A DNA stretch of 64,000 bases from an uncultured virus (IMG/VR IMGVR_UViG_3300025723_000019) (lineage: Duplodnaviria > Heunggongvirae > Uroviricota > Caudoviricetes), in IMG/VR virus record IMGVR_UViG_3300025723_000019, positions 1-64,000 of that record, one strand, 5' to 3'. The first letter of the stretch is position 1. Each line of letters opens with the position of its first letter. Position numbers and translations under genes: made by a program. The notes below the pieces were generated by a model. The model saw only the letters and a list, made by a program, of their open reading frames with translations. It was not told the origin of the DNA and ran no database searches. Shown here piece after piece: positions 2,976 to 24,242 of the stretch.

Positions 2976-3608
2976 CTACAGTCGCCAGTCGTTGTTTTGG
3001 AAAAACCCGATTGGCGCAATCCCCCCGGCCATATTTGGAACGATGCGACGGCCCTGAAGGTTCAGTTCCGTCAACGCCCACACGAGCGCATCCACGCGGT
3101 CAGGTGAAGTGGAGCCACGAGTACCCGGTGCCGGTGGCACCCACGTTGTCATCTGTTCCTCTAGGTCGGCAAATTGCTCCGGTGGGCCAACGTGGTGAAT
3201 CCGGCCCTGCTCGTAGAGAGCGACAATGGGTTCGGCTCGTGCTTTCTTGGAGTAGCGAGCATTGGGTCGGTTAATCGGCATCATTGGCCGGATGGTACGC
3301 ATCACGGATTCAAGGAGTTCGTGACCTTGGTTCGATTCGATGACCACGATGTTGGCGTTCCATTCGTCGTAGGCTCGCACCACTCGCTGCGCCCAGCGTT
3401 CGACGGAGTTCTTATTCGCGGCTGGAAGGCTGGCATCTTCCAAAACGTAGCCGTGGACTTCGCAGTGACGCACGACGCAAGTGTCAGGCTGATGCGGGCC
3501 AGCAGCCACTACGACGATGCCTGTCTCGTCGGCGTTCTCCCCGGATGTCACGGCAGGGTCAACCCCCACGACGATTTTGGTGAAGTCGCTCGGATTGACT
3601 TCAATCAC
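2976..3608 (-). CDS. terL: terminase large subunit, nuclease (RNase H-like) domain as separate ORF
   Basis: IVVGVDPAV, DETGIVV, IESNQG, SPDRVDALVWA motifs; GTG start overlapping upstream TGA, with GGAG RBS. Confidence 0.85.
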   Translation of the reverse strand: MIEVNPSDFTKIVVGVDPAVTSGENADETGIVVVAAGPHQPDTCVVRHCEVHGYVLEDASLPAANKNSVERWAQRVVRAYDEWNANIVVIESNQGHELLESVMRTIRPMMPINRPNARYSKKARAEPIVALYEQGRIHHVGPPEQFADLEEQMTTWVPPAPGTRGSTSPDRVDALVWALTELNLQGRRIVPNMAGGIAPIGFFQNNDWRL

Positions 3609-14927: not shown

Positions 14928-15146
14928 TCAAGCGTCCTTGCGCCACGCTCGCATATTCTTGTGGTTCAAGGTGGCGTAGACGACGCAGCCGGGCAGGAAG
15001 CCCCATTGCCGAGTGGTGATGGCGTAAGTCACCCAGACGGCGTTGTAGCCCTGATAGACGAGCCAGCCCCACCAGAACTTTCTACCAACGAGATAGGTGC
15101 AAGTCAGGCCGAGTGCGTCTAAGCACCACGACCACCACTGGGTCAT
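14928..15146 (-). CDS. small membrane protein (PnuC/SemiSWEET-like repeat)
   Basis: three hydrophobic segments, GRKFWWGWLV, QWGF. Confidence 0.55.
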   Translation of the reverse strand: MTQWWSWCLDALGLTCTYLVGRKFWWGWLVYQGYNAVWVTYAITTRQWGFLPGCVVYATLNHKNMRAWRKDA

Positions 15147-15622
15147 TACCTATTCGGTAGGTCTGAGTTGCCGTATATTGGAAGTTGAGCCGTAGCCTCA
15201 TCTGCCTTTTGACTTGCTTCCAAAGCGGCATCGCTGGCAGCGTTGGCGGCTTGGCGTTCAGGTGAAACTCCGAGTTCTCGCCCTTGGATGGCAGTGTTGA
15301 TGAGCGACATCGCTTCTTGGTGTGCGCCTGCTGCCTTTATGTGAGCGTTCTTTGCATCGCCTTCTGCAAGAGACTGTCCGGTGATGTTCCTCGCTACTGC
15401 GAGGTGGGCATCCCTAGCCTTGGCGTGGGTGTTGTAAGCCTCGTGCAGGTTGCCAGCGTTTTTCAGCCAACCGTTAGCGTCGGTTGCCAAACTCACTGCG
15501 TTTGCCGAACCGGCTTGATATTGGTTCCCCCGGAAAGGATGACCCTGCGAATCTCCCTTAACTATTTCAGTAGCCACATTCCACGTCGGGGCGAGGTTTT
15601 GGATTGAGAAGGGATTTGTCAA
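15146..15622 (-). CDS. leader-family protein with His/Ala helical cargo
   Basis: NPF..IVKGDSQGHPFRGNQY leader. Confidence 0.75.
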   Translation of the reverse strand: MTNPFSIQNLAPTWNVATEIVKGDSQGHPFRGNQYQAGSANAVSLATDANGWLKNAGNLHEAYNTHAKARDAHLAVARNITGQSLAEGDAKNAHIKAAGAHQEAMSLINTAIQGRELGVSPERQAANAASDAALEASQKADEATAQLPIYGNSDLPNR

Positions 15623-15624
15623 TT

Positions 15625-16602
15625 TTAGAATCCGCCTGCTTCGTCAACAGCAGCGTAATGACTTTCCGCAGCGGCTTGGCTAATGTCGCCTTTAAGGTCG
15701 TTCATTTCGTCGGGCGAGACGGTTCCACCACTTGCCACCCTGTCGGCAAGAGCCGTTGCTTTTTCGGCAACACCACGGTTAGCGTCAACGGCACCTTGAA
15801 CGTAAACTGGCCTGCCGAAATACTCACTGGGGTCGCCTTGGTAAGCCTCGTCGTTGTCTTCGTGGGTGCCAGCAATTTTATTGTGCAGGTCTGCTACGGC
15901 TCGCAAGTGTTCTTCGGTTGGTTGGATTTCACCAGCGTGGTCTTCCGACCACTCGGCTGCTTTGCTGGCTTCGTGATTGTCGCCACTCCAACTTTCCAAG
16001 GCGTGTTCTTTGGCTATGTCGGCAGCAGCCTTGGCGTAATCATCCTTTTTCCCACCCCCGGTGTATTGGTTTCCCAGAAATGGGTGGCCCGGTTGTGCGC
16101 CCGAACCCGGCCCGCCCTTAGAAACGGGGTAGTTCGATGCTGATTTCAGTAGAGCAGCCGTATGAAAATTGTCGCCCTTAGCAACCGGCTTTCCACCAAC
16201 AGTCCAAGTCGTTCCTCCAACGTTGACGGAACTTGCAGGTGTTTGGTTTGGAGAACTTGGCGTTTCTTCTTCAGGCCCTGCGGTGACACCTAAACGTCCA
16301 TTGCTAAGTTCATTCGCAGCCTTGGATGCAGCGATAGCGTCGGCTTCGTTGCCCTTACCGTTTGCAACGTCTTGCCAAGCCCTTGCAGCAGCGTAATGCT
16401 TTTCAGCAATGGAGTAGTTTTCATTCCCGCCCTTATCGGCAGCAAAGTCACCGGTTTGCGTGTGGTCACGAGCAAAATCTGATGCTTCGCCACTCGTGTA
16501 CTGATTCCCGCGAAAAGGGTGTCCTGCTTCATCACCCTTGGACACAGGGTAGTTGCTAACAGATTTCAGCAATTCTTCGGAATGAAAAGGATTGGTAGAC
16601 AC
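15625..16602 (-). CDS. leader-family protein with two leader copies
   Basis: YPVSKGDEAGHPFRGNQY and internal YPVSKGGPGSGAQPGHPFLGNQY. Confidence 0.8.
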   Translation of the reverse strand: MSTNPFHSEELLKSVSNYPVSKGDEAGHPFRGNQYTSGEASDFARDHTQTGDFAADKGGNENYSIAEKHYAAARAWQDVANGKGNEADAIAASKAANELSNGRLGVTAGPEEETPSSPNQTPASSVNVGGTTWTVGGKPVAKGDNFHTAALLKSASNYPVSKGGPGSGAQPGHPFLGNQYTGGGKKDDYAKAAADIAKEHALESWSGDNHEASKAAEWSEDHAGEIQPTEEHLRAVADLHNKIAGTHEDNDEAYQGDPSEYFGRPVYVQGAVDANRGVAEKATALADRVASGGTVSPDEMNDLKGDISQAAAESHYAAVDEAGGF

Positions 16603-16638
16603 AGGGGAACCTCCTGCGGAGATGCTACTACGGGTTGC

Positions 16639-17844
16639 TTAATTTGCCTCTCGTAGCAGTGCTGTTAACGGCAGTCCGAGACGGTGCAGGGCTTCGTCTG
16701 GCACGAGGGTGTCTGATGCCCACGATTGGTAAATGCTCTCCGGGACAGAAAATCCGTAGTCGCCAATCTTGAACTTCGATTTGGATTCCTTTGGGTTGGT
16801 GGAATCCTTGCCTGCACGAAGTTCGGCAACATCTTCTTGGTCGAAGCCGGAACCTTCCAAACTGTCCAACTTCGCCAGCGATTTCACTAGCAGGTCGTTG
16901 TCGTAGGTTGCCTTGTCGGATATTCTGTTGTCAGCCACGACGATTTTGGTTGCTGCAACTTCATTTACGTCCACCCACACCACGGCGATTTCCTTCCAAC
17001 CGAGTGCTGATGCTGCGGCTGCCGTGTGGTTGCCCTTCAGGATTTGGTTGGTGCGCCGGTTCACCACGATGGGCCGGTACTGGCCGAGGACGCGCAAACT
17101 TTCGCTGATGGCCCCGATGTCCCCTTCTCGTGGGTTGCCGGGGAAGCGACGGAGTTCGGACAGTGGCACGAGTTCGGTTTCCACCATCGTGACCTTCTGC
17201 TCATCTTCGACGGCAGAATTCTTCTCTTTCACCACTCGGACTTTTGGAACCTCTGGCAGGTCAAGTCGGTTTTTAAGTTCCCGGTTGATGGATGCTTTCT
17301 TGTCGCCCACCTCATCTTTCACGCTGGCGAGCCAAAGGTCGTGGAGCGTGGGGTCAAGTTGCCCGTAGAAATCACCAAGTTGGATTTTGACTGGTGGGTT
17401 CAGGTTGTCTGTCGGGTCTTCGTCTAGGAGCGTTGGTGAAACACCCCCACCTTCGGAGTTGTGCAGGCCGTCAAGTTCATCCAAATCTGCCAACTCAAAG
17501 CCCGTTCCTTCAAGGTCAGGCAGTGATTTCAGCATATCTAGCAACAAACTATTGTCGTAAGAAGCGATGTCGCTGGTGCGATTGTCGGTGATGAGGATGC
17601 GAAGTGCGTCATCTTCGCTGCCGTCGAAGCGTGTAATGGCGATGGTTTTCCACCCTAACGACTTGGCTGCTTTCCAAGTGTGCGTTCCGGCGATGATGGT
17701 GTCATTCCAAACCACGATTGGTGAATACTGGCCGTTGACCTCCAGTGATTCTGCGATGGCTGCCACATCTCCGAGGCGAGGATTGGCCGGATGAACGCTG
17801 ATGCTGTCAATAGCCACATTTTCGGAACTGACGTTGATGGTCAT
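16639..17844 (-). CDS. protein with two tandem ParB/Sulfiredoxin-like domains
   Basis: HPANPRLGD..GQYSPIVV..IAGTHTWKAA and FPGNPREGD..GQYRPIVV..LKGNHTAAAA; both followed by DNR. Confidence 0.85.
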   Translation of the reverse strand: MTINVSSENVAIDSISVHPANPRLGDVAAIAESLEVNGQYSPIVVWNDTIIAGTHTWKAAKSLGWKTIAITRFDGSEDDALRILITDNRTSDIASYDNSLLLDMLKSLPDLEGTGFELADLDELDGLHNSEGGGVSPTLLDEDPTDNLNPPVKIQLGDFYGQLDPTLHDLWLASVKDEVGDKKASINRELKNRLDLPEVPKVRVVKEKNSAVEDEQKVTMVETELVPLSELRRFPGNPREGDIGAISESLRVLGQYRPIVVNRRTNQILKGNHTAAAASALGWKEIAVVWVDVNEVAATKIVVADNRISDKATYDNDLLVKSLAKLDSLEGSGFDQEDVAELRAGKDSTNPKESKSKFKIGDYGFSVPESIYQSWASDTLVPDEALHRLGLPLTALLREAN

Positions 17845-17891
17845 AGCGTAAGCCTACAAGATTTCACTAAGCCAAGGATAGGATGGGATTT

Positions 17892-18518
17892 ATGGCGAAC
17901 CCGTTCCTCACTTCCGAACTTTTGAAGTGTGCGTCTCGCTACCCAGTGGTGAAGGGCGACCACGAAGGACACCCATTTCACGGCAATCAATGGGTTGAGG
18001 GTTACGGTGGCGTGCTTGACCAAGAAAATGTTGCACGCTTTGGCGCATCGCTCAACCATTTTTACACAAATGGCGGGTCAATCACTGATGCCACACCTAG
18101 CGAAATAGCGCAAGCAACGCAAGAAATCAAAGCCTTTTCGGTTGCTCACGATTATCACGACGGTGCTGGAATGATGCTTGAAGCACTTCAGGTGGGGGGC
18201 GACCACGTTTACATCGCCAGAGATGGTGATGGGAAGCCAGTAGGCGCACTTAGCGCCACTGACGCACAAAAGATTTCTTATTTCCATTTCATTGGCACAA
18301 CAGGTGAAACCCGTGGGGCTGCAACCGCTTTAGCGCACACGGCATTTCAAGTTGCCGCCGAGAAAGGGAACAGCGTTGAACTTGATGCTACTGGCGAAGG
18401 CGCTGACTTCTGGGGTGCGCTTGGGGCGCACGTTGCCGACAACGAACTGACTTACTCGTGGAGTCCTGACGAGGTGAAGAATGTTGTCAAACTTCTAGGC
18501 GAGGCTGCCCGTGCTTGA
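17892..18518 (+). CDS. leader-family protein with GNAT-like domain
   Basis: YPVVKGDHEGHPFHGNQW leader; GKPVGALS..RGAATAL..ADFWGALG. Confidence 0.75.
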   Translation: MANPFLTSELLKCASRYPVVKGDHEGHPFHGNQWVEGYGGVLDQENVARFGASLNHFYTNGGSITDATPSEIAQATQEIKAFSVAHDYHDGAGMMLEALQVGGDHVYIARDGDGKPVGALSATDAQKISYFHFIGTTGETRGAATALAHTAFQVAAEKGNSVELDATGEGADFWGALGAHVADNELTYSWSPDEVKNVVKLLGEAARA

Positions 18519-20103
18519 TTTCACTACAAACGCCTTACTTCAAGGGCTTGCTCGCTACCCAGTGGTGAAAGGCGACGTTCAGGGCCACGTTTTCCACGGG
18601 AATCAGTGGACTGGTGGTCAGGGTGGAGAGATGCCTGCCAACATCGCTGCGTTCCAAAGGAACCTCAAAGAGTTCTACGACGCTGGTGGAAAAATTGAGC
18701 GCGTAGACAACGAAAACAAGATAAGTGACCTTTACCACACATTCCTAGAAATGCGAGAAACGCCAGAATACAAGGCAATGGACGCTCGCCATCAGCAAGG
18801 CATCCGCTTTCTAGGGGAAGCAGCAATGTATGCCCACGCCAACTTCAGGGCTGCAAATAGTGAAATCAACCCCAACCAAATCGTTTCATCGCACTTGTTT
18901 GTTGCTCGCAACAAAAACAACGAAATAGTGGCTGCTGTAAATGTTGCCATTCACTCTCCCGACATACGCTTGGGCGACGGTAGCGGCCCGATACTTCCAT
19001 CAGCCAGCATTGGCTACCTCGGCTCAACCGGGAAGATGCCCGGTGCTGCAACGGCACTAATGGAGCAGGCGATTCAGATGGCAGCCGATAAGGGGTTGAC
19101 GATGACCTACCAAACGACAGCCGACAGCCATCCCTATCACGAAATGTTAGGCATTAAAAGGCTTAATGACCGTGGGTTAGAGGGATTTTCAGCAGAAAGC
19201 GCAGCCAAAATCGCAGCCCTTCCAAATCCCAAGCCAACCATTATCAAGGCTGAGGATTTCACTGTTGAGGCATTACTGCGACCCCTGAGCAACTACCCCG
19301 TTTCCAAAGTTGGCAACAACCCGGCGAGCAACAAGTCTTCGCTGCTGTCAGAAAAGGCAAACTCACTTCGGGTTTCCACCGATGGCGACCTGTCCGGCTC
19401 GGCTGCTGCCCACCGGAAATTGGCTGCTGAACACTCGGCTCTGGCATCACAACTGACTGGTGATGCTGCTCAGAAGCATCGTGACGCTGCAACTGCCCAC
19501 ACCGAGGCTGCTGACGAGATTGACGCTATCCGACCCGTTGAGGGTGGCTCTATTGCTTCCAATGCTCTGACCGGGGATAAGGCTCACGCTTTTGCTGGAA
19601 TGGCTGCACGGGCTTCCAATGCTGCGCTCCAAGCAACCATCAACCAAAAGGCAATGCCTGTGACGAAGATGGTGGAAACCGACTACTACGGCCCTCACGC
19701 TAAAGAGATGCTGGCGAAGTTCGACACCCCACCTGTAGATTTCCGGGCGATGGGTGGATTCCACCTTGGATACGGAATTAGACATCAAGATATGGCCGAC
19801 CAACTCCAATCGTTGGCGTACAAACTGCGTGGTGAAAACGGCAATGTTGACAACGCTGCCACTCGTGCGTGGATGCAGGCTTCCGTTGCACACCGAGATG
19901 CAATGCAAGCGCACTACACGGCTGGTCGAATCAACGATGCTGCTGCGTTTGCCAACACGAAGGTGGAAGGTGCAACCCCATCCACTCACCATTCGATGGG
20001 GAACTGTCGCTACGCCTCTACTGCTGCTGCTGATGCTTCCCAAAAGGCAGACGAAGCAACCGAGGCAGCCCAGAACATCGCTGCTGAGCCACAAGACGAT
20101 TGA
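18511..20103 (+). CDS. leader-family multidomain protein (GNAT-like plus two helical modules)
   Basis: YPVVKGDVQGHVFHGNQW; YLGSTGKMPGAATALM; internal DFTVEALL..YPVSK. Confidence 0.8.
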   Translation: MLDFTTNALLQGLARYPVVKGDVQGHVFHGNQWTGGQGGEMPANIAAFQRNLKEFYDAGGKIERVDNENKISDLYHTFLEMRETPEYKAMDARHQQGIRFLGEAAMYAHANFRAANSEINPNQIVSSHLFVARNKNNEIVAAVNVAIHSPDIRLGDGSGPILPSASIGYLGSTGKMPGAATALMEQAIQMAADKGLTMTYQTTADSHPYHEMLGIKRLNDRGLEGFSAESAAKIAALPNPKPTIIKAEDFTVEALLRPLSNYPVSKVGNNPASNKSSLLSEKANSLRVSTDGDLSGSAAAHRKLAAEHSALASQLTGDAAQKHRDAATAHTEAADEIDAIRPVEGGSIASNALTGDKAHAFAGMAARASNAALQATINQKAMPVTKMVETDYYGPHAKEMLAKFDTPPVDFRAMGGFHLGYGIRHQDMADQLQSLAYKLRGENGNVDNAATRAWMQASVAHRDAMQAHYTAGRINDAAAFANTKVEGATPSTHHSMGNCRYASTAAADASQKADEATEAAQNIAAEPQDD

Positions 20104-20141
20104 CCCTAGACACATTTCACTGACTGAGGTAGAGTGAAGAA

Positions 20142-20288
20142 ATGACTGAACTGCGTTGTCGAAATTGCGGGGCAAGCATTGAGCGCATTGTCCCCGGTTC
20201 CACCACTCCAAACCATTTCCGGCACAAGAACAAGGCCGTTGCCTGCGACTTGGATGATGTCGGCTCCCTTACTGCTGAACCGAAGTAA
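20142..20288 (+). CDS. small Zn-finger-like protein
   Basis: MTELRCRNCG..HFRH..C; GAGGT RBS. Confidence 0.5.
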   Translation: MTELRCRNCGASIERIVPGSTTPNHFRHKNKAVACDLDDVGSLTAEPK

Positions 20289-20320
20289 GGCATTTACAAA
20301 ACTAAAGTAATCTTGGCAGT

Positions 20321-21007
20321 ATGCGTGGCGACGAATTCACAACTGCATCACTGCTGAAATCTCTTTCTGCCTACCCGGTTTCCAAGGGCGATTTCGACGG
20401 CCACCCGTTTCGTGGGAACCAATACCGGACTGGTGAAGGTGGGTTTCCAAACGCCAAAGTGACTAGCCCCAAGGAATTCCTGTCGGCTTTCAGCAGTGCG
20501 TTCAAGGGAAATCCCTACTCTGCGTTCGTGAATCACTACACCCTCGCCCAAATTAAGGCCGAGAAGATGACCCCGCTTCTGTCCCCGGATGGTCGAACCG
20601 GCTGCCTCATCCACGACCACGGTGATGGTCGAATCGAAGCCACGGCTTTGTTCTCCAAGGGCGTGAGTGGCAGTGGTGCTGCAATGCTGCACGATGCCAT
20701 TAAGAACCACGGGGTGAACTACGTTGAGTGTTTCGGTGAGCATCTCCCCCAAGTCTATGGTAAACTGGGGTTTAGAGATACCGAGGTGATGCCGTTCAAC
20801 AAGGAGTACGCTCCCAGCGACTGGGACTACGAAAAGTTTGGCACCCCCGACTACCACATAATGGAGTTGAAGAACGTGACCAAGAGTGCTGATGAAAAGG
20901 CAATTCGTGACGCTGCCAAGGCAAAGATGAAGCCCGACCAGTTGAAGTACGAAGAAGCCCTGTGGCGCGCTGCTCAGGCCGTTCTTGGTAGCGACGAGAA
21001 CAAGTAG
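20321..21007 (+). CDS. leader-family protein with GNAT-like domain
   Basis: YPVSKGDFDGHPFRGNQY; LFSKGVSGSGAAML..ECF..LPQVYGKLGF. Confidence 0.75.
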   Translation: MRGDEFTTASLLKSLSAYPVSKGDFDGHPFRGNQYRTGEGGFPNAKVTSPKEFLSAFSSAFKGNPYSAFVNHYTLAQIKAEKMTPLLSPDGRTGCLIHDHGDGRIEATALFSKGVSGSGAAMLHDAIKNHGVNYVECFGEHLPQVYGKLGFRDTEVMPFNKEYAPSDWDYEKFGTPDYHIMELKNVTKSADEKAIRDAAKAKMKPDQLKYEEALWRAAQAVLGSDENK

Positions 21008-21039: not shown

Positions 21040-21294
21040 ATGGATGCGTCTGATTTCACTAGCGATACCCTGATTCGTTGGGTCGCCAAGGCCGACCGCT
21101 GGAGTGGTCGCGACCTCGCAAGCGAGCGATTCCAAAAGGCTGCTCAGGCTCACATTCAGGCTGGCCAACTCTGGCAACGTGCTGCACACGCCTACGCCAG
21201 TGGTGATGAGGCTAACGCCAAGGTTCTGTACAAGCAGGCCCACGACGCTTCGGCCAAGGCAAAGAACCTGTCTGCTGAAGCAGAAATGATTTAA
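21040..21294 (+). CDS. partial-leader helical protein
   Basis: DFTSDTLI.WVAK leader remnant; Ala/His-rich helix. Confidence 0.6.
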   Translation: MDASDFTSDTLIRWVAKADRWSGRDLASERFQKAAQAHIQAGQLWQRAAHAYASGDEANAKVLYKQAHDASAKAKNLSAEAEMI

Positions 21295-24242
21295 CTAGTC
21301 TGTTGCAACCCACGCTCTGCGAGGCTGACAAGCAAATCACCAACGATTGAGCCTTCCTCGTCTTCATCTTCGTCGGTGCCGTCAATAGCCCTGTCCACGA
21401 TGGAGCGTTTGTGCTGAATCAGGGCTGCGATGTCTTCGTCAATCGTGTCTGCCGTGAGCATTAGCCAAGCGGTCACGCTGTCCTTCTGGCCGATACGGTG
21501 GCAACGGTCTGCGCCCTGCTCCATATCGCTCGGTGTCCACCCCTGTTCGATGAACAGCACGTCGCTCGCTGCCGTGAGGGTCAGTCCCACTCCGGCTGCT
21601 TTGATGTTGCAAGCGATGACTTTTTGTTCGTCGGAGTTTTGGAAAAGGTCAACGGCTTCTTGACGCTTCTCTGACGAGATTCCACCTTGAATCTTGACCC
21701 CATTGGCGAAGTTGACGGCAATGTCATCCACCACAGTGCGATGCCATCCGAACACCACGAGTTTCTTGTCGTTGGCGAGAAAGTCTTCTACCCACTGCTT
21801 GGCGACCTTCATCTTGGCCTTCGCTGCCAGTTGCTTCAGGGTGCTGATTGCGACCAGTTGCTCTGCTGCTCTGGCTCGGAGTGCCTTCATCCACGCCTCT
21901 TTGCGGGCTTCCTCTGAACTTGCCCCGGATTCCAAGGCAAACTGCATTGCAAGTTGTGAAAGGTATTTCACAATATCGGCTTCTGCCTTTTTGTATTCCT
22001 TCATCACGGCTGCGTCGCCTTCCACCACCACGCTGCTCCAACGCTTTGGTGGCAGTTCGGTCAGCACGTCAGCCTTCCTGCGCCGGACATAACACATTGA
22101 GCGCAGTTTGCGATTGAGGGATGCGAGGCTTTTCGCACTGGCTCTGCCGTAGACGTTGCGGAATGACGATGCACCACCAAAGTCATCCAGTCGGTGAACG
22201 ATGCGAAGTTGGGTCATCAGTTCCAACGGCTGGTTGACGATAGGCGTACCGGACAGGCAAACACGAACGCCGTTTTCCACCACTTTGTCGGACAACTTGA
22301 TGGCTGCCTTGGAACGCTGGGCTGCGCCGTTCTTGACGTAGTGGCTCTCGTCTAGCACGATGCCCTTCACTGAGGTGAAACGCTCTACCCAGTGGGTCAG
22401 AATGTCGTAGTTGCAGATTATAATGATGGGATGAGCATTAGATACAGCACTGATGAACTCGCCAACGCCGTCGCCAGACGAGAACGAGGCGACAACATCA
22501 ACGAAATCGTCAAGGACTTCCCCGGATACGTCCACAATGTCGCTGCTTTCCAAAAGCGACTGGACAACTTCGCCAACCCCAAGCCGAGAAATAGGCGATT
22601 TGAGGGTCGCACCCTGAACCTGCCGGACGATATTGCCCAACTCGGATACATCGCTGGAATCGTTGATGGCGAGGGAAGCATTTCCAAATCCGGCAAGGCT
22701 TGGACTATTGTCGTTTACAACACTGACAAGGGTTTGATGGACTGGCTTTCCAGTTTTGGTGGTCGCAGTTATGTTCGCACGTTCGTCAAGGAGCCGCGCT
22801 TCCCTACGAAGCGAACTCAATACGGTTGGGTCGTCGCTCGTCAACTTGATGTCTTGTATCTTTCTGAAAAGTTGGAACCTTACTTGCTCATCAAGAAAGA
22901 CCGAGCGAGGCAGGCTCAGGCGGAGATTAGGCTTCGTGGTTCCTTCAAGGATGACGGTTCCGGCCTCTCCTAACCAGTTGTGGGCTTCACGCTCCCAGTT
23001 GAATTTCAGGCTTGCCGGGCAGATAATGACTGCTGGAAACGATTGGGTGGCTTGCAAAATTCCAAGGCCCTGACAGGTCTTGCCGAGGCCCATTTCATCA
23101 CCAACGATGACCCCACCTTCACCGGTGTTCTTCGTGCGCTCCCACACGCCTTCGCTGGTGTGTTCCCATCCCATTGCTCGCAGTGCATAGGCAACCCCGG
23201 CACGTTGGAACGGAAACAGTTGCAGTGTTTCACTGCCGAATCCCTTGATGGTGATTTGGGCATCTTTGGCAGCCGAGGCTTCAATGATTTCTTGTACGAT
23301 GCTGGCTTCGTCAACGAGGCGCACTGCCTCAGGGGACATTGCAGCGTTAAACTCCTTGGAGAATTTCAGCACTTCGTCTACGGATTCGATGGGGACAACC
23401 CAAGTCCGTAATGCTGGTGACCACGACGAACCCGGCATCTGGCGCACTGCGCTGAGCAGTTGAGCGTCGTAGGTGAACGAGATAGCGAAGTCCCGGCCTT
23501 GAACCGAAATCTTTGGCCCGGTGGTGATTTCTACCTCAGGCAGTTCCAACACGCCCTTGGACAGTTCAATGTTGTAGTCGCTCGCCAGTTTGCGAACGAT
23601 GCTGACCGTCTCCTTGGGGACAACCCACGTCTTGTCTACGCCATTCCACCTACGACCCGGAATTGAGCGCACAGCATCTACGAGCGATGGGTTGTAGTCA
23701 AACGCCATCACGATTTCGCCGTTGCGGAATACTGCCTTACCGATGTAGTCGGGGTGTTCTGGCTTGGGCGCACTTTCCAGCAACGCCTTGGCTCGCTCCG
23801 TGACCGGGACGTTGTTCTGCTTCGCCCAGTCCAGCACCGAGCCGTACTTGCTGACCGAAACCTGCCAACCTCGCAGTTCACGGTTCCACATAGCGTTGAG
23901 CGCACCCTTGGGATACGCCGAATCACCATACGGCAGGAAGACGAGAATCTTGCCAGCCTTTACGTCAACGGCACGGACAAACTTCTGGCCCTTGACCTTT
24001 GACGGCTCAGGAATAGCGTCGTAGTCAATTCCACCACTAGCAAGTTGGCCTCGGTACTTGGAAAGCATCTCCCACGCTTCACGCTGGGAACCTTCGCTCC
24101 ACGCTTCAGGGGAGATTGCTGCGAGTGCCTTACCGAACCGACTGTCGGGGCCATTGAACCCCTTGGCATCTTGCTGAACCGCACCATCGCAGTTGGCAGC
24201 GAGATACTGGACAGCCTTGGCTAGCAACTCACTTGTCGGCAT
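21291..24242 (-). CDS. SNF2/HARP-like DNA helicase with ~165-aa insertion
   Basis: GDEMGLGKT, ICPASLK.NW.RE, DESH, LSGTP, GVGLTLTAA, QGADRCHRIGQ; repeated N-terminal HARP-like W..W.V modules. Confidence 0.9.
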   Translation of the reverse strand: MPTSELLAKAVQYLAANCDGAVQQDAKGFNGPDSRFGKALAAISPEAWSEGSQREAWEMLSKYRGQLASGGIDYDAIPEPSKVKGQKFVRAVDVKAGKILVFLPYGDSAYPKGALNAMWNRELRGWQVSVSKYGSVLDWAKQNNVPVTERAKALLESAPKPEHPDYIGKAVFRNGEIVMAFDYNPSLVDAVRSIPGRRWNGVDKTWVVPKETVSIVRKLASDYNIELSKGVLELPEVEITTGPKISVQGRDFAISFTYDAQLLSAVRQMPGSSWSPALRTWVVPIESVDEVLKFSKEFNAAMSPEAVRLVDEASIVQEIIEASAAKDAQITIKGFGSETLQLFPFQRAGVAYALRAMGWEHTSEGVWERTKNTGEGGVIVGDEMGLGKTCQGLGILQATQSFPAVIICPASLKFNWEREAHNWLGEAGTVILEGTTKPNLRLSLPRSVFLDEQVRFQLFRKIQDIKLTSDDPTVLSSLRREARLLDERANITATTKTGKPVHQTLVSVVNDNSPSLAGFGNASLAINDSSDVSELGNIVRQVQGATLKSPISRLGVGEVVQSLLESSDIVDVSGEVLDDFVDVVASFSSGDGVGEFISAVSNAHPIIIICNYDILTHWVERFTSVKGIVLDESHYVKNGAAQRSKAAIKLSDKVVENGVRVCLSGTPIVNQPLELMTQLRIVHRLDDFGGASSFRNVYGRASAKSLASLNRKLRSMCYVRRRKADVLTELPPKRWSSVVVEGDAAVMKEYKKAEADIVKYLSQLAMQFALESGASSEEARKEAWMKALRARAAEQLVAISTLKQLAAKAKMKVAKQWVEDFLANDKKLVVFGWHRTVVDDIAVNFANGVKIQGGISSEKRQEAVDLFQNSDEQKVIACNIKAAGVGLTLTAASDVLFIEQGWTPSDMEQGADRCHRIGQKDSVTAWLMLTADTIDEDIAALIQHKRSIVDRAIDGTDEDEDEEGSIVGDLLVSLAERGLQQTS
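22431..22973 (+). mobile_element. LAGLIDADG homing endonuclease gene nested antisense in helicase
   Basis: LGYIAGIVDGEGSI, VYNTD..L, FGG, LEPYLLIKKDRA; TATAAT at 22419-22424 six nt before ATG. Confidence 0.85.

What the first reader, a model, noticed from the sequence alone, without database searches (positions are those of the whole stretch)
21291..24242. LAGLIDADG endonuclease gene hidden antisense, in codon register, inside an unbroken helicase ORF
Seen: the helicase has ~165 extra residues between motif Ia (REAHNWL..EGTTKP) and IICNYDIL. That segment is the reverse complement of a complete HTH+LAGLIDADG gene (22431-22973). The two frames are codon-aligned, and the helicase frame has no stop. 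The endonuclease -10 box (TATAAT 22419-22424, leaderless ATG) is made from helicase Ile codons, and its stop lies in native helicase sequence. There are no intein signatures (no Cys/Ser..HN) and no room for a group I intron core. Established: homing endonucleases normally avoid damaging their host gene via an intron, an intein or a free-standing position. Inference: this is either a splicing-free strategy where the helicase tolerates an antisense-encoded loop, or an unrecognised RNA- or protein-level removal mechanism. Caveat: codon-aligned antisense frames are often open in GC-rich genes.
Basis: partly seen in the sequence, partly recalled or inferred. Interest (0 to 1): 0.85.

Follow-up and report, generated by a model that had tools for sequence, protein, structure and literature searches.

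The report
Backwards homing-endonuclease cassette in phage helicase
A selfish DNA-cutting gene sits backwards, codon for codon, inside a phage helicase gene without breaking it and with no intron or intein to remove it; near-identical phages lack it, and other, distantly related phage helicases carry similar genes at the same spot.

Summary
Confirmed, with corrected junctions. A 180-aa HTH plus I-CreI-like LAGLIDADG gene (22431-22973, +) lies codon-aligned and antisense inside an unbroken 983-aa SNF2 helicase of a 121-kb phage. Six other assemblies carry it. Empty 821-aa alleles, identical in the C-terminal core, exist. It is a swap: 558 foreign nt (22413-22970) replace 72 nt and supply the helicase's two local beta-strands, the endonuclease tail and a TATAAT box. 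Targeted scans found five more divergent elements at the same site, all in codon register with no stop across the insert. Our helicase nests among empty alleles, far from the other five hosts, so the gain is recent and horizontal. No intron, intein or junction pairing was found; the model shows a low-confidence loop on an intact core. Best reading (0.7): a splicing-free homing element, translated through as a loop. Against present activity: one occupied haplotype, start codon lost in 5 of 25 contigs, no expression or cleavage data. Closest known: ShiLan domain (same strand, HNH, methylase). This scan noted the same layout twice before on other genomes. New variant of a known kind.

The parts
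21291..24242 (-). SNF2-family helicase/translocase gene, 983 aa, unbroken (HARP-like repeat, SNF2 and Helicase_C domains)
   Evidence: fold matches to SNF2 ATPases
22431..22973 (+). Antisense, codon-aligned HTH + single-motif LAGLIDADG endonuclease gene, 180 aa
22413..22970 (-). Foreign cassette, 558 nt (helicase codons 425-610), replacing 72 nt (24 codons) of the empty allele
   Evidence: alignment with 821-aa alleles P0005-P0007; spacing in relatives
22923..22970 (-). Dual-use flank: helicase residues 425-440 (replacement beta-strand after motif Ia) and, on the other strand, the endonuclease C-terminal tail
   Evidence: strand E428-433 in the model
22413..22430 (-). Dual-use flank: helicase residues 605-610 (replacement beta-strand before NYD) and, on the other strand, the endonuclease upstream region
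   Evidence: strand E606-611 in the model
22419..22424 (+). TATAAT hexamer ending 6 nt before the ATG: candidate -10 box for a leaderless transcript (inferred, untested)
   Evidence: the only 1 of 3 TATAAT in the genome lying 5-7 nt before an ATG; not listed
22431..22433 (+). Start codon; reads ATA in a natural variant (L009, L012; protein P0274 on 5 contigs)
22449..22574 (+). Three-helix N-terminal (HTH-like) domain, endonuclease residues 7-48
   Evidence: weak Pfam HTH hits in sister elements
22647..22676 (+). LAGLIDADG motif (Y73-G82); D79 and G82 invariant, E81 nearly invariant in 61 relatives
22971..22973 (+). Endonuclease stop TAA = reverse of helicase Leu424 (TTA), at the junction
22479..22799 (-). 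Low-confidence (pLDDT<50) part of the loop in the helicase model, residues 482-588
23076..23090 (-). Walker A (GLGKT, 385-389), intact
22341..22352 (-). Walker B (DESH, 631-634), intact

Best explanation
A mobile homing-endonuclease cassette that protects its host gene without splicing. It occupies a length-variable surface loop of SNF2 lobe 1, between the motif Ia helix and the I-I-N-Y-D strand. Shown: it lies backwards in codon register, avoids TTA/CTA/TCA so that the helicase frame has no stop, and brings replacement versions of the two beta-strands that border the loop. Inferred: the helicase is made as one 983-aa chain with a mostly disordered loop and still works; the endonuclease is made from its own opposite-strand transcript (here probably leaderless, from TATAAT), acts as a homodimer (recalled for single-motif LAGLIDADGs), cuts empty helicase alleles at or near the replaced stretch, and is copied in by repair that crosses over at the conserved anchors on both sides. 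This phage lineage gained it recently from a distant helicase; part of the population already carries a start-less, probably decaying copy.
For: Empty alleles of 821 aa differ from the occupied protein by only 3-6 residues outside the cassette and P0006 is identical over 336 core columns; occupied proteins stand on 25 contigs, empty near-identical ones on 82. Six distinct elements at the same site (ours, L456, L505, L522/L552, L535, L551), endonucleases 31-53% and helicase C-halves 33-54% identical. Every helicase locus that the pattern scans returned had the endonuclease in codon register with no stop in the insert: 7 of 7 among 119 loci, 10 of 10 among 97, 7 of 7 among 16, although the patterns demanded neither register nor an open frame. 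2.5-7.3 antisense stops expected per element, 0 seen; TCA 0 of 43, CTA 0 of 83, TTA 0, against 23 of 275 A-ending codons in the V/A/T/P boxes (about 2e-5 by my arithmetic). The endonuclease frame is the conserved one: 31% vs 19% identity over 2581 codon pairs. Helicase tree: ours among empties (99*), the other five in a separate clade (100*), at least 2 changes forced. Model: core mostly pLDDT above 85, strands 428-433 and 606-611 formed, loop low. Among occupied alleles all 4 changes outside the cassette are silent in the helicase. No same-strand gene follows the helicase, so the open frame is not there to protect downstream genes. L535/L538 tolerates a second hidden endonuclease in its C-terminal domain.
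Against: All occupied alleles share G334, F414 and T982, where the full-length empties have E, L and A: one haplotype, so no sign of repeated homing inside this population. Start codon lost in P0274 (5 of 25 contigs); 4 of 5 changes inside the cassette alter the endonuclease. The L522/L552 helicase has a stop at Walker A, outside the insert, so at least one host is broken or mis-assembled. The endonuclease tree is poorly resolved and does not show one clade: four elements in a group with support 80, two elsewhere, mixed with proteins of unknown context. A clear -10 box is seen only here; L456, L522 and L551 have Shine-Dalgarno-like motifs instead. No target site could be identified. No donor was found, and empty alleles of the other clade were barely sampled (only L247). 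A low-confidence loop is also what AlphaFold gives when one row of 83 has the insert.
Confidence: 0.7

Rival explanations
1. The cassette is real and mobile, but the occupied helicase is crippled or dispensable; the open frame is kept only to avoid a truncated product or transcription polarity.
For: One of six hosts has a stop at Walker A. The same stop avoidance occurs where no host protein runs through: 28 of 34 LAGLIDADG genes antisense to a capsid-like gene have an open antisense frame, against 0 of 6 in sense orientation, which looks like a polarity guard. The loop is a fifth of the protein.
Against: Five of six hosts keep full frames and motifs at 33-54% mutual identity; 4 of 4 outside changes are silent; the next gene here is convergent; the cassette supplies proper strand replacements.
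Confidence: 0.12
2. An unrecognised RNA- or protein-level step removes the insert (non-canonical splicing, ribosome bypass or proteolysis with re-association of the halves).
For: Nothing positive; only that expression data are missing. A sister endonuclease splits a related helicase into two genes (L247), so the halves can probably work as separate chains.
Against: The endonuclease coding region fills the cassette; no intron family at E<=5 in the window or E<=1 in five sister loci; no Hint domain in four hosts, while Pfam did see Hint/intein signal in true intein controls L218 and L237; no His-Asn plus nucleophile at any junction; no shared terminal repeat or pairing; fold z -1.35. Strict stop avoidance would be needless if the RNA were spliced.
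Confidence: 0.1
3. A one-off accident: a free-standing endonuclease landed in frame by chance and is a neutral, decaying passenger.
For: 11% of windows in this genome have an open antisense frame; single haplotype and start loss here.
Against: Six divergent elements at one site, all in register; endonuclease frame conserved more than helicase frame; horizontal jump between helicase clades. Decay of this copy is compatible with the best explanation.
Confidence: 0.08

Closest known systems
ShiLan domain and Pacc40 gp60 insertion (Arsenault, Gosselin, Gogarten 2025, PMC11855218; read parts 1, 3, 4 of 6 and passages)
   Same: Stop-free, non-splicing insertion in a phage gene; endonuclease hidden in another frame; host-frame product unstructured and thought to be tolerated; patchy distribution; leaderless start proposed.
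   Different: ShiLan is HNH, same strand (frame 3), in a non-essential methylase, inserted between two codons. Here: LAGLIDADG, opposite strand, needs its own transcript, in an SNF2 ATPase lobe, and replaces 24 host codons including two beta-strands. 'antisense', 'opposite strand' and 'reverse' do not occur in that paper's main text.
Inteins with antisense or out-of-frame LAGLIDADG (Gosselin et al., bioRxiv 10.1101/2025.01.02.630785, passages; dnaX intein, bioRxiv 10.64898/2026.09.14.751524, abstract and section 17)
   Same: LAGLIDADG gene (I-CreI-like) in another frame or on the antisense strand while the host frame stays open; selection acts on the endonuclease frame.
   Different: Those sit inside a splicing intein that removes the nonsense peptide; here no splicing domain exists.
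Gene-splitting free-standing endonucleases: mobE in Aeh1 nrdA, mobA in T4 gene 60 (review PMC2988022, passages)
   Same: Endonuclease gene inside a host coding region without intron or intein; co-conversion of flanks. L247 shows this strategy for the same endonuclease family in an SNF2 helicase.
   Different: They are co-oriented and split the host into two polypeptides; here the host stays one open frame.
I-CreI / I-MsoI single-motif LAGLIDADG endonucleases
   Same: Motif and fold.
   Different: About 20-23% identity, extra N-terminal helical domain, not intron-encoded.

Membership tests
Single-motif LAGLIDADG endonuclease (I-CreI type) | One LAGLIDADG helix with acidic residues, followed by the alpha/beta saddle | tested here: met
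   Pfam score below cut-off
Single-motif LAGLIDADG endonuclease (I-CreI type) | Homodimer that cuts a long pseudo-palindromic site | tested here: inconclusive
   No outstanding palindrome at the I|NYD junction in 10 empty relatives; dimer and cleavage not tested
Homing endonuclease element | Occupied and empty alleles of the same gene; distribution at odds with host tree | tested here: met
Homing endonuclease element | Cleavage of the empty allele and biased inheritance | not testable with these tools
   needs assay; single occupied haplotype here gives no sign of repeated homing
ShiLan-type non-splicing dual-frame insertion | No stop in host frame, endonuclease in another frame, no splicing domain | tested here: met
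ShiLan-type non-splicing dual-frame insertion | HNH nuclease on the host's own strand, in a methylase | tested here: not met
   LAGLIDADG, antisense, SNF2 helicase; works like it, is not a member
Intein | Hint domain, N-terminal Cys/Ser, C-terminal His-Asn followed by Cys/Ser/Thr | tested here: not met
Group I / group II intron | Catalytic RNA core outside the ORF; host frame interrupted | tested here: not met
   caveat: Rfam at gathering score also found no intron in 20 other endonuclease loci, most of them capsid-interrupting, so its silence is weak; the stronger point is that coding sequence fills the cassette
Gene-splitting free-standing endonuclease (mobE/nrdA type) | Host gene divided into two ORFs | tested here: not met
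   983-aa open frame; met for L247
SNF2 helicase | Motifs I, II, III, VI and two RecA-like lobes | tested here: met

The most novel reading that the evidence does not exclude
A widespread, annotation-invisible class of ambigrammatic homing elements: endonuclease genes written so that their reverse strand is a harmless in-frame loop, carrying their own replacement structural strands, promoter and stop in dual-use codons, and able to jump between ATPases only about 35-39% identical. This would be a distinct way, beside introns, inteins and gene splitting, for homing endonucleases to live inside a working enzyme, with the same stop avoidance reused in capsid introns.
Probability: 0.45. Interest if true: 0.85.

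Novelty: new variant of a known kind. Interest (0 to 1): 0.7.

Why it matters
Homing endonucleases inside genes are thought to need an intron, an intein or a split host. The published exception (ShiLan) is in a dispensable methylase and untested. Here the same logic appears on the opposite strand, at one conserved site in six divergent phage ATPases. This genome gives a clean test pair: occupied and empty alleles nearly identical outside 558 nt, plus a natural start-less variant. Gene callers miss the endonuclease (its sequence is absent from a 15-billion-protein collection while the helicase is present), so such elements are probably under-counted and are an unmined source of meganucleases. 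They also show how antisense-derived peptide and foreign strands can enter an enzyme.

Tried and rejected
Misassembly: rejected. Intein and intron: no support. End-pairing or repeat at the junctions for excision or ribosome bypass: none shared among six. Palindromic target at the I|NYD junction: unremarkable in 10 of 10 empty relatives, and scores were as high or higher in occupied alleles. DNA of the 99% empty allele: not found in viral or metagenome collections, so the junctions rest on protein alignment and on 86% relatives. Protein search with the helicase-frame insert found no other carrier; the sister elements are too divergent in that frame. INPHARED phages: only 3 weak Streptomyces phage endonuclease hits; the 25 listed of 833 helicase hits showed 39-44% relatives, not inspected further. 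The one-clade test on the helicase tree was void because the identical empty row was left free; I rely on starred branches. In one search two long spacings (L113, L137) were pattern artefacts and L147 is another copy of this allele. No second copy of the endonuclease family in this genome. Literature searches found no paper on an antisense LAGLIDADG in an unspliced helicase; the library lacks most subscription journals, and no supplements were read (the ShiLan paper's hit tables could list similar cases).
Full report
Observation. The window is the first 64 kb of a 121,340-base virus record with direct terminal repeats. The ORF 21291-24242 (-) is an unbroken 983-aa SNF2 helicase. On the opposite strand, in codon register, 22431-22973 encodes 180 aa: three N-terminal helices and a single-motif LAGLIDADG domain (model pLDDT 89.9; best fold matches I-CreI; profile hits to I-MsoI and I-CreI). 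It belongs to a large family (1404 representatives at E<=0.001) but its own sequence is not in the protein collection. Six other IMG/VR contigs carry the same allele, so it is no assembly error.

Junctions. Proteins P0005-P0007 (821 aa) are the empty allele; outside the cassette they differ from ours at 3 to 6 residues. The event is a replacement: after Leu424 the 24 native residues up to Asn611 are exchanged for 186 foreign ones (558 nt, 22413-22970, for 72 nt). The first 16 and last 6 foreign residues resemble the lost ones and form the expected beta-strands in the model (428-433, 606-611), while 482-588 has pLDDT under 50 and most of the core is above 85 (only 1 of 83 alignment rows has the insert, so low confidence is expected either way). 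On the other strand the same flanks encode the endonuclease tail with its stop (reverse of Leu424) and the TATAAT hexamer 6 nt before the ATG. The site is a length-variable loop: 166 of 169 non-element helicases have 31-36 residues between the NW and NYD motifs; the three exceptions were two pattern artefacts and another copy of this allele. DNA of the near-identical empty allele was not found.

Population. Exact-sequence look-up gives 25 contigs for the five occupied proteins and 82 for four near-identical empty ones (contigs are not independent samples). All occupied full-length variants share G334, F414 and T982 against E, L and A in the full-length empties, so they look like one haplotype. 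Among occupied alleles, 4 of 4 changes outside the cassette are silent in the helicase; of 5 inside, 4 change the endonuclease, one of them ATG to ATA (P0274, 5 contigs), and 4 change the helicase loop. This fits a working helicase, a free-drifting loop and beginning decay of the endonuclease; it gives no evidence of repeated homing within this population.

Chance, and a family. For one gene an open antisense frame is not striking: 93 of 862 windows of 162 codons in this genome have one, and codon use gives P 0.04-0.10. Every locus that held a helicase also held an antisense HTH-LAGLIDADG in codon register with no stop across the insert: 7 of 119 loci, 10 of 97, 7 of the 16 screened. They collapse to six elements: ours, L456, L505, L522/L552 (two helical repeats), L535/L538 and L551. 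Endonucleases are 31-53% and helicase C-halves 33-54% identical; stops fall 8-12 codons after the Trp, starts 5-14 codons from the Asn. Expected antisense stops were 2.5-7.3 per element, observed none (L551 counted from an internal ATG only). A-ending codons are scarce in these genes anyway (23 of 275 in the V/A/T/P boxes, 33 of 85 for Gly), which tempers this, but TCA 0 of 43 and CTA 0 of 83 remain unlikely (about 2e-5 by my arithmetic). Identity is 31% in the endonuclease frame and 19% in the helicase frame. Five hosts are full open frames; L522/L552 has a stop at Walker A outside the insert. The patterns see only one site and one distance range, so six is a minimum.

Horizontal gain. In a tree of 35 helicase cores (reduced from 175 by identity), ours is identical to empty P0006 and nested in empties (99*), while the other five hosts form a separate clade (100*); starred branches force at least two changes. 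Empties were sampled mainly around our gene, so patchiness in the other clade is not shown, apart from L247, whose loop is empty. The endonuclease tree (87 rows, 114 columns; 6 rows dropped for lack of the motif) is weak: four elements in a group with support 80, two in another, with relatives of unknown context between them. One origin or several is open.

No removal machinery. Coding sequence fills the cassette. Rfam finds no intron in the window region or in five sister loci, though it also found none in 20 other endonuclease loci, most of them capsid-interrupting. No Hint domain in four hosts, whereas two true intein controls gave weak Hint hits; no His-Asn-nucleophile junction; no shared terminal repeats or pairing; folding z -1.35. 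The gene after the helicase is convergent, so polarity on downstream genes does not explain the open frame here.

Mechanism. Shown: anatomy, occupied/empty polymorphism, recurrence, stop avoidance, conservation in the endonuclease frame, horizontal gain. Inferred: read-through into a tolerated loop; opposite-strand transcription (TATAAT with leaderless ATG here, the only 1 of 3 TATAAT in the genome so placed, no control; Shine-Dalgarno-like motifs in L456, L522, L551); cleavage of empty alleles; repair crossing over at the conserved anchors, which would explain why the flanks are swapped. The target is unknown; a palindrome test failed. The host is unknown; one homologue at 51% is named from an Actinomycetota genome. 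That single-motif LAGLIDADGs are homodimers is recalled.

Relation to known systems. It works like the ShiLan domain (PMC11855218; parts 1, 3, 4 of 6 and passages read) but differs in nuclease family, strand, host and the swap of structural strands. Antisense or out-of-frame LAGLIDADGs are known inside inteins (10.1101/2025.01.02.630785, passages; 10.64898/2026.09.14.751524, abstract and section 17), where splicing removes the nonsense peptide. Gene-splitting insertions (PMC2988022, passages) are the third neighbour, and L247 shows this family doing that to an SNF2 gene. Seven literature searches found no description of this layout; supplements were not read. Two earlier notes of this scan (e1-5973119, e1-6037639) report the same layout in other genomes with no shared sequence words; they prompted my targeted scans, and I cannot tell whether they are among my six.

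Verdict. Real, recurrent, most likely a splicing-free homing element (0.7); new variant of a known kind; interest 0.7, chiefly because the occupied/empty pair makes tolerance and homing directly testable.

Noticed in passing
L170, L172-L175, L182-L184, L187-L193, L195, L202, L203, L206, L209, L216, L217, L222, L225, L228, L243, L267, L287 (match near 3001-3350 in most): LAGLIDADG genes inside interruptions of a capsid-like gene in genomes of 35-47% GC: 28 of 34 lying antisense to the capsid gene keep the codon-aligned antisense frame open, against 0 of 6 in sense orientation. The interruptions look like introns but Rfam gave no hit at gathering score. Suggests selection to keep the host-strand RNA translatable.
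   Followed up: partly
L535:2573-3094 (+), also L538: [quoted passage not shown]
   Followed up: partly
L247:2151-4949 (+): A same-family HTH-LAGLIDADG gene, co-oriented, splits an SNF2 helicase into two ORFs after motif II, with a new promoter-like repeat and ribosome site before the second half.
   Followed up: partly
L218:1725-3611 and L237:2364-4418 (+): Inteins in a glycosyltransferase and a vWA/metallopeptidase gene with a LAGLIDADG gene in another frame of the same strand, like the dnaX intein.
   Followed up: partly
P0031, P0036, P0046, P0049: Close relatives of this helicase (about 1160 aa) carry LAGLIDADG_3; in P0031 it is a canonical-looking intein right after the Walker A lysine, so the gene is invaded at a second site by the usual route.
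   Followed up: no
L552 helicase, Walker A: A short extra stretch with an in-frame TAA inside the Walker A region of one occupied helicase; pseudogene or assembly error.
   Followed up: no
window 22710: Two different substitutions at the same base in different alleles (endonuclease V94F and V94I), a variable strand position in relatives.
   Followed up: no
window 15146-21007: Several unrelated-looking ORFs share an N-terminal motif of the form PVxKGD.xGHPFxGNQ, resembling a common targeting or processing signal; next to a double ParB-domain gene at 16639-17844.
   Followed up: no
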